A program made the position numbers. From Pseudomonadota bacterium (GTDB lineage Bacteria > Pseudomonadota > Alphaproteobacteria > Rickettsiales > Rickettsiaceae): DNA of 64,000 bases. The stretch is taken from assembly GCA_041179265.1 (NCBI GenBank), contig JBEGTS010000041.1:6847-70846 (forward strand), in the 5' to 3' direction. Numbering within the stretch: the first letter of the stretch is position 1; each line of letters opens with the position of its first letter. Positions 27,001 through 30,000 of the stretch are shown here, piece by piece.

Positions 27001-30000
27001 GACTTTCCACTGCTATATAAAGAATGTTATTATTAAAAGGCGGTGGGATTATATAATCAGAAGTCATTCGCTTATACGCTCTATAAATCTGTCGTATTTC
27101 TTCCCAACTATATTGTGACCAGGAAATACTCCATAGTGTTTTCATAGTTTGAAATTCATGAAATTTTTATATTTTCCTGCTGCTGTATAGCTTTTTTACG
27201 CATTTCTATATATTCTTCCTTGCTCATAATTTTTTCGGGAGCGACATAATCTAAAAATACTTTTCCATTTAGATGATCAATTTCATGCTGGATAACTCTT
27301 GCTAAAAATCCTTCTGCGATACCTTGAATTTGATTTCCATTTATATCATATGCTTGATAATGAATCTTCTTGAATCTTGCTACCGGACCTGTAGCATTTT
27401 CAACAGAAAAACATCCTTCGTAATCTTCATATTTCTTAGTACCTATCGGCTTATATGAGGGGTTAATCCATATAGTTTTAGGCATAATATCCGTAAGATC
27501 GGGACGCCATTTTTTTAACTCTTCATCTGCATGTACTGCAAATATTATGATACATTTTGATATACCTATTTGCGGTGCTGCAAGCCCTGCACAATTTTCT
27601 TCTTGATCATATTTCTTCTCTAATATAGATACATCACGTAAGTCTTCTGCAGATAAAGGAAAGTTTAACATTTTTGCCTTTATTCTAATAGTTTTATTGC
27701 CGGAACTATTTAAGGTTTGAATGTTCAAAGTTACATATTCCGAGTTTGTTATATTTGAATCTTTCATATGAATATTTTCCTTATTGCTTTTACAACCTGT
27801 TATAAAAAATATTGTAACTAATAAAAAAGTTATATTAAAACTATTCATTATTATCCCACCCATATTCATGGAAATTTCTATTATTACTTAATGATTCTAT
27901 AGCTCTTTTAGCGAGTGGTCCCATATTTTTAGGCAATTGATTTAAAGGATACCACTCATTTGCTAAATGAATATTCGGCTCTTTATTATAAGGTTTGCCT
28001 TTCGAAGATTTAGTATAAAAGAAGAAATGAATTTTATGTTTATCCTCTAGCTTTCTATCTATAACAGTTGTAAGGATTAAATCATTTGGGCTTACTGTAA
28101 CGCCGGCTTCTTCCATTACTTCTCGTGTTAGTGCTTGTTTTAAAGATTCGCCTGCTTCAACATGCCCACCGACTAAAGTATATTCATAGCTAGTATTAGT
28201 ATTTTTTTTCAAAAGAAATACCTCATTGTTGCTACTAATTAATATCAACCATACTATAATTTCAATCATATATGTAATTATAAATTTTACTCAATTTTCC
28301 TTAAAGCCATGCTGAAATATACACCATCACCGAGGTTTACGGTGCGAAAATCAAAAGACTCAAAATCTATGTTAGGTAATGGGCTTGAATGAGAGCTTTT
28401 CATATCTAGTAAATTTTGCTTTTCCACGTATTGCTTAAAGGTTATATTTTGAGGAAACGATTTTGCTGTATCTTCAAAGCTGAAATATCTGATTTCATAA
28501 TTAACATTGTTAATAATAACTCTCAAGCCACAAATTTGCGGATTAACCGAAGATGAAGAAGTGCTATTAGCAATTTGCGGAGCCACTTCTAATAACTCTT
28601 TTAGCGTAAGGTTTCCTTCACTACCATACATTGCAGCTGAAAGTAATATGATAATTAAAAAACTTGCTATATATTTTTTAAACATCTTCTTCTCCTATTA
28701 AATTAGTTGTATCATTTTCTTTTTCAATAACAATTTCTAGCTTAGTAGAGTTACCGATAAGAGGACCTAAAGTATTTTCGTAAAAATCTTCTTTAATATC
28801 TTGTACTTGCTTTAATATACTACTAAACTTTGAATCTTCAGGATGTTGCTCTACTTTCTCTTGAAAATAACTGTATAATTGTTCACAAAATTCTTTTCCC
28901 GTTGTTGTTGCTCCAAAAATAGTTAGTACTTTAGGCATTGTTAAACCTAATTCAAGAAAATATATTGTCATATCTAGATCAAGATCATCAACGCTAAAAT
29001 CTATGACCGAGCTATTTTCTTTGATTAATCGACCTATCGGATAATAAAACTCATGTTTTGGCGTTCTAATCTGTATATCTGCGTTCTTTTCCTGAACTAA
29101 AAATTTCACTAATTCAAGATTACCTTGTAATGAAGCTATATGTAAAGGGGTCATTCCATCAATATTAAGTTCGTTAATATCAATATTTTCCTCAGTTTCT
29201 AAAACTTTTTTTACAAATTTAACATCTCCACTATTAATACTTATATCTAAAATATTGGTATTAAAATTTAAAAGTAGCGGTGGTGAGGCTATCAAGATTT
29301 TCCTTGTTTCCGTCCAACTATATTGTGACCAAGAAATATACCACAGTGATTTCATAATTTTATTCTCTTGTTGAAATTTATGAAATTTTTATATTTAGCT
29401 AATTAGTAATTATAGATAGAAGTTAGAATTAAGTAAATTAATTATCATATTTCGTTTACTTATCTCAAAGTTTATCATTTTATTCAATTTCCTTTGAGTA
29501 AAAATCATCTGATTTGACTTTTCCAACATATTTTAGTATAATACTTATCTTCAAAATAAATAGAAAAATTTAATTTATGAGTACTCCTAAAAGTGATGAT
29601 TATATCTCGGAACTAAGAAAAGTAATTTGGCCTATAGAAAGGTATGAAAATAAGAAATTTCTACCTATGGCGTTTATGATGTTTTGTATTTTATTAAACT
29701 ATTCGACTCTTCGCTCAATTAAAGATGGGTTTGTAGTAACAGATATAGGAGCTGAAGCAATAAGTTTCTTAAAAACATATATAGTACTACCTTCTGCAGT
29801 AATCGCTATGGTAATTTATGTTAAACTTTGCGATATTTTAAAGCAAGAAAACGTATTTTACGTCATTACTTCATTTTTCCTAGGGTATTTTGCATTATTT
29901 GCATTTGTCCTCTACCCTTATCCTGATTTAGTTCATCCTGATCCTGAGACTATAGAATCTTTAAGTTTAGCTTACCCTAATTTCAAATGGTTTATAAGAA

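What the first reader, a model, noticed from the sequence alone, without database searches (positions are those of the whole stretch)
27156..27848. Peptide deformylase with a lipoprotein signal peptide
Seen: all three catalytic motifs intact, preceded by a hydrophobic stretch and lipobox (ITG-C). The ATG overlaps the Nudix stop and follows a G-rich SD-like run, supporting translation of the leader. Known: deformylases are cytoplasmic and ribosome-associated, and N-formyl peptides are innate immune agonists. Inference: an exported deformylase acting on released formyl-peptides, a function I do not recognise as described.
Basis: partly seen in the sequence, partly recalled or inferred. Interest (0 to 1): 0.72.

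Follow-up and report, generated by a model that had tools for sequence, protein, structure and literature searches.

The report
Exported lipoprotein-type peptide deformylase paralogue
This Rickettsia genome keeps, beside its ordinary peptide deformylase, a third intact copy that carries a conserved lipoprotein export signal, and it belongs to a small, apparently undescribed group of such enzymes in endosymbiont-type bacteria, so an enzyme known only from the ribosome probably also works in the cell envelope.

Summary
The minus-strand ORF 27156-27848 is a complete peptide deformylase (PDF). All three catalytic motifs are present and it gives a confident PDF fold. It is preceded by MNSFNITFLLVTIFFITG|C, a type II (lipoprotein) signal.

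The same genome holds the housekeeping def-fmt operon and a catalytically dead PDF-like copy elsewhere, so this is an accessory paralogue.

The leader is not chance:
- Every intact Rickettsia orthologue keeps IF[IM][TA]GC despite 11-16 nucleotide changes in 57 nt. Random drift keeps the features in only 1-4% of trials.
- Decaying copies lose the lipobox.
- About half of the 50%-identity clusters of this PDF subfamily carry SPII or SPI leaders, against 1 of 69 ordinary PDFs.
- Lgt and LspA are present.

The subfamily is confined to small-genome Alphaproteobacteria, always sits beside a canonical PDF, and is eroding within Rickettsia.

Best reading: a lipid-anchored envelope deformylase acting on formyl-peptides that escape the cytoplasmic enzyme. 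The immune-evasion purpose is unsupported.

A conserved internal Met (M28 here) at the domain boundary leaves open a second, cytosolic isoform. I found no paper describing exported PDFs. No transcript or protein evidence was obtainable.

The parts
27156..27848 (-). Accessory peptide deformylase paralogue, long form (230 aa plus the TGA stop at 27156-27158)
   Evidence: ORF list. PF01327 at 3.3e-37. AF2 model with pLDDT 89, and Foldseek matches to PDF structures.
27795..27848 (-). Signal peptide, residues 1-18: n-region MNSFN (no basic residue), then apolar h-region ITFLLVTIFF
   Evidence: Sequence. Conserved in orthologues. Drift simulation gives 1-4%.
27792..27803 (-). Lipobox I-T-G-C. Cys19 (27792-27794) is the predicted lipidated first residue of the mature protein, followed by K at +2
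   Evidence: IF[IM][TA]GC is kept in all intact Rickettsia copies, with synonymous changes (TTT/TTC, GGT/GGA). It is altered to ITDC or STIGC in decaying copies.
27849..27869 (-). Optional in-frame upstream extension MNMGGII (ATGs at 27869 and 27863), without an SD-like site
   Evidence: P0009 (MIGRIKNSFSIS...) shows that a relative may use the equivalent upstream start.
27855..27860 (-). GGTGGG, an SD-like run 6 nt upstream of the leader ATG, inside the end of the Nudix gene
   Evidence: -6.3 kcal/mol duplex with the anti-SD.
27741..27791 (-). Linker or tether, residues 20-36 (KSNKENIHMKDSNITNS), predicted disordered
   Evidence: AF2 pLDDT is below 50 for residues 24-29. Length is variable among orthologues.
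27765..27767 (-). Internal ATG (Met28, MKDSNIT), a possible second start giving a leaderless cytosolic form
   Evidence: Met is conserved at the leader/domain boundary across the subfamily. An SD-like AAGGAA lies at 27777-27782, -5.1 kcal/mol.
27159..27740 (-). Catalytic PDF domain (residues 37-230) ending in a C-terminal helix (210-229)
   Evidence: AF2 secondary structure. dN/dS is 0.09-0.20 among intact orthologues.
27564..27587 (-). Motif 1, GLAAPQIG, preceded by the subfamily-specific Cys86
   Evidence: Alignment A1.
27405..27419 (-). Motif 2, EGCFS (Cys146 is the metal ligand)
   Evidence: Alignment A1: E144, C146, F147 and S148 are invariant.
27273..27290 (-). Motif 3, QHEIDH (His188 and His192 are metal ligands; Glu189 is the catalytic residue)
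   Evidence: Alignment A1: Q187, H188, E189, D191 and H192 are invariant.
27841..28269 (-). Nudix hydrolase gene whose stop overlaps the deformylase ATG. A neighbour only in this genome
   Evidence: PF00293 at 3.3e-17. Not found in the orthologous loci.
26501..27145 (-). Ankyrin-repeat gene starting 10 nt after the deformylase stop (same transcription direction)
16080..16820 (-). lgt (prolipoprotein diacylglyceryl transferase), needed to lipidate the lipobox Cys. Elsewhere in the same window
   Evidence: PF01790 at 7.3e-80 at C41:22926-23666, minus strand of the contig. The window is the contig's + strand offset by 6846. LspA is at C3:31978-32391.

Best explanation
The gene encodes a catalytically competent peptide deformylase made as a prolipoprotein.

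Proposed path (steps marked shown or inferred):
- Translation starts at ATG 27848 (inferred from orthologue alignment and the SD-like site).
- The 18-residue signal takes the chain through Sec. Lgt adds diacylglycerol to Cys19 and LspA cleaves before it. These steps are inferred; the signal features, Lgt and LspA are shown.
- The mature enzyme hangs by a roughly 17-residue disordered tether on the periplasmic face of a membrane. By E. coli sorting rules this would be the outer membrane, because residue +2 is Lys and not Asp (inferred).
- There it binds a metal and removes the N-formyl group from formyl-Met peptides or N-termini that never met the cytoplasmic, ribosome-bound Def. Candidates are signal-peptide remnants and N-out membrane proteins (inferred from family chemistry; the substrate is unknown).
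- The likely pay-off is unblocking such peptides for aminopeptidases and recycling. Blunting of formyl-peptide signals to the host is a less supported possibility.

The enzyme is an accessory third PDF. The housekeeping def-fmt operon does the ordinary job. The gene belongs to a distinct PDF subfamily of small-genome Alphaproteobacteria in which export (SPII or SPI) is the common state.
For: (1) Intact enzyme. PF01327 scores 127.9 bits. All three motifs are invariant in A1. The AF2 model has pLDDT 89 with PDF-fold matches at TM 0.75-0.87. The domain is under purifying selection, dN/dS 0.09-0.20.

(2) Leader under selection.
- Nine Rickettsia-clade homologues carry an apolar h-region plus F[IM][TA]GC.
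- Synonymous changes occur inside the lipobox codons. Random substitutions keep an open frame, an apolar h-region and a lipobox in only 1-4% of trials per species pair.
- The lipobox is degraded exactly in the copies whose enzyme is decaying: ITDC together with HEIDYL in L088, and STIGC in L102.

(3) Export is a family trait.
- About 42% of the 120 closest homologues have SPII or SPI leaders as called.
- Two of four 'leaderless' calls checked on contigs, and the annotated Ca. Bealeia gene, have hidden in-frame leaders.
- In the unbiased 50%-identity representative set, about half of the top 52 full-length clusters have leaders. The share falls to 8 of 46 and then 2 of 29 further out.
- Only 1 of 69 ordinary PDF loci shows such an extension.
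- The sister clade of the Rickettsia genes uses SPI-type signals, so what is conserved is export, not a particular sequence.

(4) Machinery present. LspA and Lgt are found. About 25 other convincing lipoproteins with similar leaders exist in this genome, including the 17-kDa-antigen-like MKLLSKIMIIALAASMLQAC.

(5) Not needed in the cytoplasm. All 18 genomes with the subfamily also have a canonical PDF scoring 144-186 bits. This genome has def-fmt.

(6) The h-region of about 12 residues is too short for a stable membrane-spanning helix (sequence; established signal-peptide knowledge).

(7) Exported and membrane proteins are the class that escapes cytoplasmic deformylation, as stated in PMC12690207. 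That provides a plausible substrate pool.
Against: - There is no experimental or transcript evidence.
- SignalP and LipoP were not available. The signal call rests on rules and comparison.
- The window's n-region has no basic residue, which lowers export efficiency in model systems (my knowledge of E. coli Lpp signal mutants).
- A conserved internal Met with its own SD-like site could give a cytosolic form.
- The subfamily keeps the C-terminal helix that in E. coli Def binds the ribosome.
- Some members are truly leaderless, with strong SDs.
- Leader dN/dS is about 1.
- The gene is dispensable: 11 of 27 congeneric species lack it and about 10 have it with stop codons.
- No conserved neighbour points to a pathway.
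- No substrate is known.
Confidence: 0.62

Rival explanations
1. Two isoforms from one gene. Initiation at ATG 27848 gives the exported lipoprotein. Initiation at the conserved internal ATG (27767, Met28) gives a leaderless cytosolic PDF. The gene would then serve both compartments.
For: - A Met lies 1-6 residues before the LPxY start of the domain in about 20-22 of 48 leader-bearing members, against about 12% expected. 40 of 48 have a Met somewhere in the linker.
- This is exactly where truly leaderless homologues start.
- Both ATGs have SD-like sites here (-6.3 and -5.1 kcal/mol) and in Ca. Bealeia (-5.8 and -6.0).
- The C-terminal helix of ribosome-binding type is retained.
- NCBI annotates the Bealeia gene from the internal Met.
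Against: - The Met may simply be the frozen ancestral start, left after an N-terminal extension.
- In spotted-fever-group copies the site upstream of the internal ATG is weak (-3.6).
- Every genome already has a canonical cytosolic PDF, so a cytosolic isoform has no obvious need.
- There are no expression data.
Confidence: 0.22
2. Only the short cytosolic form is made in this genome. The leader is a relic, the true start is MKDSNIT, and the protein is an ordinary redundant or inhibitor-insensitive back-up PDF of the kind described for Vibrio Def2.
For: - The n-region has lost both lysines seen in relatives.
- The internal ATG has an AAGGAA site.
- The Arg97 equivalent (actinonin contact; R97Y gives resistance in PMC12690207) is Thr153 here.
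- Accessory PDFs are common in bacteria (PMC12690207).
Against: - The h-region and lipobox are perfectly kept in this lineage. Another intact orthologue (L089, MQNLN) also lacks basic residues.
- The leader ATG has the better SD-like site.
- Relic leaders elsewhere visibly decay: ITDC, IFLTGH.
- An obligate intracellular bacterium has little exposure to actinonin-type inhibitors (inference).
Confidence: 0.1
3. The gene is on its way to becoming a pseudogene and has no current function in this genome. The intact motifs only reflect recent relaxation.
For: Within the genus, 10 of 16 copies carry stop codons and 11 species lack the gene. The R. africae representative has EEC instead of EGC. The gene is missing from the typhus group and R. 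canadensis (PMC2635572).
Against: The window's copy has no stop and every invariant residue of the subfamily. It shows dN/dS 0.12-0.20 against four other intact copies. Its genome neighbourhood is compact and co-directional.
Confidence: 0.06

Closest known systems
Canonical bacterial peptide deformylase, type 1B (E. coli Def, EC 3.5.1.88; here the def-fmt copy at C29:19180-19650)
   Same: Same fold, the same three metal-binding and catalytic motifs, and a C-terminal helix.
   Different: - Only 32% identical to the genome's own Def.
- Below the NCBIfam equivalog cut-off (94.7 against 103.95).
- Has a 36-residue N-terminal signal plus tether and a KKWRPD insertion.
- Cys in place of the first Gly of motif 1, Phe in EGCFS, and Thr in place of Arg97.
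- Predicted to be extracytoplasmic, not ribosome-bound.
- Never the sole PDF of a genome.
Organellar type 1A deformylases (Arabidopsis PDF1A, PDB 1zxz; human mitochondrial PDF, 3g5k; 4je6)
   Same: Among the best structural matches. These too are PDFs that carry an N-terminal targeting extension sending the enzyme into another compartment (my knowledge).
   Different: About 26-27% identity. There the extension is a transit peptide into a compartment that has its own ribosomes making formylated proteins. Here it is a Sec/SPII signal into a compartment without translation.
Accessory PDFs such as Vibrio cholerae Def2 and integron or plasmid PDFs (PMC12690207)
   Same: An extra PDF copy beside the housekeeping one, with a substitution at the Arg97 position.
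   Different: Those are cytoplasmic, can replace Def1 and give inhibitor tolerance. That survey does not mention the word lipoprotein, and uses 'signal peptide' and 'periplasm' only for PDF substrates and a cloning vector, not for PDFs that carry export signals. Here the defining trait is the export signal.
Rickettsial 'peptide deformylase-like' paralogue (the copy at C5:35751-36203 in this genome)
   Same: Another non-housekeeping PF01327 member of Rickettsia genomes.
   Different: That copy has EGSLS and HEIDYL (Cys and His ligands lost), has no leader, and is 183 aa. The window's gene is catalytically intact and carries a signal.
Ordinary rickettsial outer-membrane lipoproteins (e.g. the 17-kDa antigen type, MKLLSKIMIIALAASMLQAC in this genome)
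   Same: The same kind of short leader ending in a lipobox Cys, and the same processing enzymes.
   Different: The passenger here is an enzyme of cytoplasmic protein maturation. The n-region here lacks the usual Lys or Arg.

Membership tests
Peptide deformylase family (Pfam PF01327) | Profile match above the curated cut-off | tested here: met
   127.9 bits against a cut-off of 22.8. Also 128.6 bits in the six-frame genome search.
Peptide deformylase family (Pfam PF01327) | Three catalytic motifs: GxGxAAxQ-type, EGCxS and HExDH | tested here: met
   C-A-GLAAPQ, EGCFS and QHEIDH are present. The Cys, both His, the Glu and the Gln are invariant in 40 relatives. The first Gly of motif 1 is Cys in the whole subfamily.
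Peptide deformylase family (Pfam PF01327) | PDF fold | tested here: met
   AF2 pLDDT 89.2 and pTM 0.82. Foldseek probability 1.00 to 4je6, 5hgw, 5kob and 1zxz, with TM up to 0.87.
Peptide deformylase family (Pfam PF01327) | Formyl-Met peptide amidohydrolase activity | not testable with these tools
   Needs an enzyme assay.
Housekeeping Def (NCBIfam TIGR00079 equivalog; ribosome-associated, cytoplasmic, usually next to fmt) | Score above the equivalog cut-off | tested here: not met
   94.7 bits against 103.95. NF001159 subfamily: 113.9 against 125.
Housekeeping Def (NCBIfam TIGR00079 equivalog; ribosome-associated, cytoplasmic, usually next to fmt) | Linked to fmt, or the sole PDF of the genome | tested here: not met
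   The def-fmt pair is on contig C29. All 18 genomes with this subfamily have a separate canonical PDF.
Bacterial lipoprotein precursor (Sec/SPII signal) | Lipobox [LVI][ASTVI][GAS]C with Cys between positions 15 and 35, after an uncharged apolar stretch | tested here: met
   I-T-G-C19, or C26 from the most upstream ATG. The h-region is ITFLLVTIFF.
Bacterial lipoprotein precursor (Sec/SPII signal) | At least one Lys or Arg in the n-region | tested here: not met
   The window has MNSFN (0 basic residues). Most orthologues have MQKLK, MSKLK or MK. One other intact orthologue has MQNLN.
Bacterial lipoprotein precursor (Sec/SPII signal) | Processing enzymes Lgt and LspA encoded in the genome | tested here: met
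   PF01790 at 7.3e-80 and PF01252 at 5.4e-36.
Bacterial lipoprotein precursor (Sec/SPII signal) | Conservation of the signal in orthologues | tested here: met
Bacterial lipoprotein precursor (Sec/SPII signal) | Actual lipidation and cleavage | not testable with these tools
   Needs globomycin, palmitate labelling or mass spectrometry.

The most novel reading that the evidence does not exclude
Endosymbiont-type Alphaproteobacteria (Rickettsia, Holosporales relatives and uncultured kin) have a dedicated extracytoplasmic deformylation step.
- It is carried out by one PDF subfamily whose gene gives two products: an exported, usually lipid-anchored enzyme from the first ATG, and a cytosolic enzyme from a conserved internal Met at the domain boundary.
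- The exported form strips the formyl group from signal-peptide-derived and other fMet peptides in the envelope before they reach the host cell.
Probability: 0.2. Interest if true: 0.8.

Novelty: new variant of a known kind. Interest (0 to 1): 0.6.

Why it matters
Peptide deformylase is taught as a strictly cytoplasmic, ribosome-bound step of protein maturation, and it is an antibiotic target. A conserved clade of exported PDFs would mean that formyl groups are also removed outside the cytoplasm.

This bears on several questions:
- how bacteria handle the formylated N-termini of membrane and secreted proteins that escape Def;
- the origin and fate of formyl-peptide signals seen by host cells;
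- how PDF inhibitors are interpreted in organisms with several PDFs.

For genome annotation, it shows that start codons of this subfamily are often called too far downstream, which hides the signal. Ca. Bealeia is one example.

For Rickettsia, the gene is accessory and eroding. Any role there is not central to vertebrate pathogenesis.

Tried and rejected
- The search for related loci in genome contigs was swamped by the generic IQHE[IV]DH pattern. It returned only four subfamily loci, so taxonomy had to come from the genome search and source names.
- The promoter and terminator scan found no more sites than shuffles do, so operon limits are not defined.
- Codon-level dN/dS of the 19-codon leader is about 1 and cannot show translation. 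I replaced it with a drift simulation on signal features.
- A conserved gene neighbourhood was sought and not found. Neighbours differ in every distant locus. The Nudix gene is next to def only here. I therefore rejected a functional Nudix-PDF pairing.
- An uncleaved membrane anchor with a cytoplasmic domain was rejected. The apolar stretch is only about 12 residues and ends in a conserved lipobox.
- Chance hydrophobic translation of AT-rich upstream DNA was rejected. It is 1 in 69 in control PDF loci, and stop codons are frequent in such DNA.
- A first attempt to classify the representatives failed because my motif-1 pattern did not fit the subfamily. It was redone.
- Literature searches for exported, periplasmic or secreted PDF found nothing. 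The library lacks most subscription journals, so absence there is not proof.
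Full report
WHAT IS THERE

The window is part of a 1.385-Mb, 42-contig, AT-rich genome. Its closest protein matches are Rickettsia species: 83% to R. tillamookensis and 80% to R. africae.

On the minus strand, 27156-27848 encodes a 230-aa protein.
- Pfam places residues 80-213 (numbered on the 237-aa form) in PF01327, at 127.9 bits.
- NCBIfam's Def equivalog and subfamily models match, but below their cut-offs.
- The three PDF motifs are present: GLAAPQIG, EGCFS and QHEIDH. The metal ligands (Cys146, His188, His192), Glu189 and Gln93 are invariant in an alignment of 40 relatives.
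- An AlphaFold model built on that alignment is confident (pLDDT 89, pTM 0.82). It shows a short N-terminal helix (residues 6-16), a disordered stretch (pLDDT below 50 at 24-29), and then a complete PDF domain ending in a long C-terminal helix.
- Foldseek finds only deformylases. The best are Arabidopsis and human-like type 1A enzymes and Burkholderia PDFs. The best sequence match in the PDB is about 40% identical over roughly 115 residues.

The N-terminus reads MNSFN-ITFLLVTIFF-ITG-C19-KSNKENIHM28KDSNITNSEYV.
- The ATG overlaps the stop of a Nudix gene (PF00293) in ATGAATAG.
- It follows GGTGGG by 6 nt.

THE OTHER DEFORMYLASES OF THE GENOME

A six-frame search finds three PF01327 genes.
- One (C29) is a 175-aa canonical Def followed directly by fmt, with EGCIS and QHEYDHL. 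This is the housekeeping enzyme.
- One (C5) is a 183-aa copy with EGSLS and HEIDYL. It has lost the Cys and a His ligand.
- The third is the window's gene. It is 32% identical to the housekeeping Def.

IS THE LEADER REAL?

A PROSITE-style lipobox rule hits 41 of 1161 ORFs of this genome. About 25 of these are convincing lipoproteins with very similar leaders. A match alone therefore has a prior of a few percent.

The comparative evidence is much stronger.
- All intact Rickettsia-clade homologues have a leader of the same length that ends in IFITGC, FFIAGC or IFMTGC.
- Between species the 57-nt leader differs at 11-16 positions, including synonymous changes inside the lipobox codons. Yet the frame, the apolar core and the lipobox are always kept.
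- Random substitutions of the same number keep them in only 1-4% of trials for each pair.
- The copy whose enzyme is decaying (L088: HEIDYL, FPLS changed to SLLS, truncated end) has ITDC. Another broken copy has STIGC.
- The catalytic domain of intact copies is under purifying selection, with dN/dS 0.09-0.20.
- LspA and Lgt are encoded. lgt lies in this very window at 16080-16820.
- The apolar stretch is about 12 residues. That is the length of a cleavable signal, not of a membrane anchor.

One weakness: the n-region here has no Lys or Arg, unlike MQKLK or MSKLK in most relatives. One other intact orthologue (MQNLN) shares this.

A SUBFAMILY IN WHICH EXPORT IS COMMON

The 120 closest homologues (49-83% identity) share a clear signature: LPxYV..FPLSxED..NCAGLAAPQIG..LKKWRPD..MPKTIWINPSY..DYEGCFSV..GFLARxIQHEIDHLNG.
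- As called, about 40% start with a lipoprotein signal (for example ...LTGC...LSGC...LQGC) or an SPI-type signal (...VYA|EK...AKA|EH).
- Gene callers often miss the leader.
  - The Ca. Bealeia gene annotated as 194 aa has an in-frame upstream MLKRSFLFLTLSSFLVAC.
  - P0031 has MSSNKISKVGIKVWFFGLLFYSNPLVG.
  - P0034 has a vestigial IFLTGH.
  - P0046 and P0120 are truly leaderless, with strong SDs.
- On a tree, leaders occur in all major clades. The sister clade of the Rickettsia genes uses SPI signals.
- In an exhaustive profile search of 1.84 billion representatives, 117 clusters reach E<=1e-30. About half of the 52 full-length clusters among the top 60 have leaders, then 8 of 46, then 2 of 29 as the hits grade into ordinary PDFs.
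- In 69 ordinary PDF loci, only one has an upstream in-frame hydrophobic extension.

What is conserved is therefore export, not any particular sequence.

DISTRIBUTION

Within the genus:
- 16 of 27 other species give a match.
- Only four or five of those are intact, and about ten carry stop codons.
- 11 species lack the gene.

Other points:
- Gillespie et al. list a 'peptide deformylase' orthologous group as missing from R. canadensis and the typhus group (PMC2635572).
- Only 2 of 34 genera sampled in the order have it.
- In an even sample of 400 genomes of the class, ten other genomes have it, all 1.0-2.1 Mb.
- In 400 genomes of the phylum, no other genome has it.
- Named sources are Rickettsia, Ca. 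Bealeia, Ca. Finniella and unnamed Alphaproteobacteria MAGs.
- Every one of 18 carrier genomes also has a canonical PDF.
- No neighbour is conserved. The Nudix gene lies next to def only here. In R. tillamookensis and others, the small secreted protein of unknown function (28287-28685 here) directly precedes def.

HOW IT MOST LIKELY WORKS

Shown:
- an intact PDF domain;
- a selected SPII signal;
- the processing enzymes;
- a separate housekeeping Def.

Inferred:
- The protein is exported by Sec, lipidated on Cys19 and cleaved.
- It is tethered by about 17 disordered residues in the envelope. Lys at +2 argues for the outer membrane by E. coli rules.
- It removes formyl groups from fMet peptides or N-termini there.

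Membrane and exported proteins are the class that escapes cytoplasmic deformylation (statement in PMC12690207). Their signal-peptide remnants are blocked against aminopeptidases, so unblocking for recycling is the most economical purpose. Hiding formyl peptides from the host is possible. It fits poorly with the loss of the gene in many vertebrate-pathogenic rickettsiae and with its presence mainly in Holosporales-type symbionts and uncultured small-genome relatives.

AN UNEXPLAINED REGULARITY

- In leader-bearing members a Met sits just before the LPxY start of the domain far more often than chance: about 42% within six residues against 12% expected, and 83% somewhere in the linker.
- This is where truly leaderless homologues start.
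- Here it is Met28 (27765-27767), preceded by AAGGAA.
- In Ca. Bealeia both ATGs have good SD-like sites.
- Either this is the frozen ancestral start, or both starts are used and the gene gives an exported and a cytosolic isoform. Sequence alone cannot decide.

COMPARISON WITH WHAT IS KNOWN

The enzyme is a member of the PDF family: profile, motifs and fold were all tested and met. It is not the housekeeping Def, because equivalog cut-offs, fmt linkage and sole-copy status are all not met.

The nearest analogy is the organellar type 1A PDFs, whose N-terminal extension also sends the enzyme to another compartment. That compartment, however, has its own translation.

The 2025 survey of accessory PDFs does not describe PDFs with export signals (PMC12690207). 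Its resistance-linked Arg97 position is Thr here, which keeps a cytosolic back-up-enzyme reading alive as a minor rival.

Full-text searches for periplasmic, secreted, exported or lipoprotein deformylases returned nothing.

Earlier notes of this scan report exported PDFs in Bacteroidota, Myxococcota and a Holosporaceae relative. These are unchecked leads, but they suggest the phenomenon is wider than this clade.

VERDICT

- I rate it a new variant of a known kind.
- Interest is moderate to high as a class, and lower for this particular, eroding rickettsial copy.

Noticed in passing
genome contig C5:35751-36203 (locus L002 1423-1974, minus): A third PF01327 paralogue of 183 aa with EGSLS and HEIDYL, i.e. 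the Cys and one His metal ligand replaced. It is a catalytically dead 'deformylase-like' protein that still scores 163 bits and is kept in other Rickettsia genomes.
   Followed up: partly
window 26501-27145 and 28678-29355 (minus): Two ankyrin-repeat paralogues flank the Nudix-def pair. They are 38% identical and have near-identical starts: MKTLWSISWSQYSWEEIR and MKSLWYISWSQYSWTETR. Relatives of both are present in the R. tillamookensis and Argas-endosymbiont loci.
   Followed up: partly
window 27841-28269 (minus): The Nudix hydrolase gene is present between the small secreted protein and def only in this genome. In L085, L088 and L089 the gene ending ...GDGVYFSMALRKI directly precedes def. 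This is a lineage-specific insertion or a loss elsewhere.
   Followed up: partly
window 28287-28685 (minus): A 132-aa protein with an SPI-like signal (MFKKYIASFLIIILLSAAMYG) and no Pfam family. It is the conserved upstream neighbour of the exported def in several Rickettsia lineages.
   Followed up: no
locus L104 (genome G249, Ca. Bealeia paramacronuclearis-type sequence): The public annotation starts this PDF at MTQLPDY (194 aa). An in-frame upstream ATG with its own AGAGGA site adds MLKRSFLFLTLSSFLVAC plus a 27-residue linker, so the start codon is probably called too far downstream.
   Followed up: yes
locus L117 (P0034): A vestigial leader lies upstream of a 'leaderless' PDF: ...KFHTIGLLLGSIFLTGH-AP-M, with His where the lipobox Cys would be and no ATG. 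This suggests secondary loss of export in that lineage.
   Followed up: partly
P0003 (R. africae ESF-5 cluster, 52 members): Motif 2 reads YEECFS instead of YEGCFS, and KKWHPD replaces KKWRPD. This suggests functional erosion even in copies without stop codons.
   Followed up: no
window 29577-31073 (plus): A 498-aa multi-pass membrane protein resembling the rickettsial ATP/ADP translocase (Tlc), judged by eye. It lies just upstream of the divergent minus-strand gene block.
   Followed up: no
alignment A1, residue 86 of the window protein: The whole subfamily has Cys in place of the first Gly of motif 1 (NCAGLAAPQ) and Phe in EGCFS. Both positions line the S1' pocket in E. coli Def (my knowledge), which hints at altered substrate preference.
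   Followed up: no
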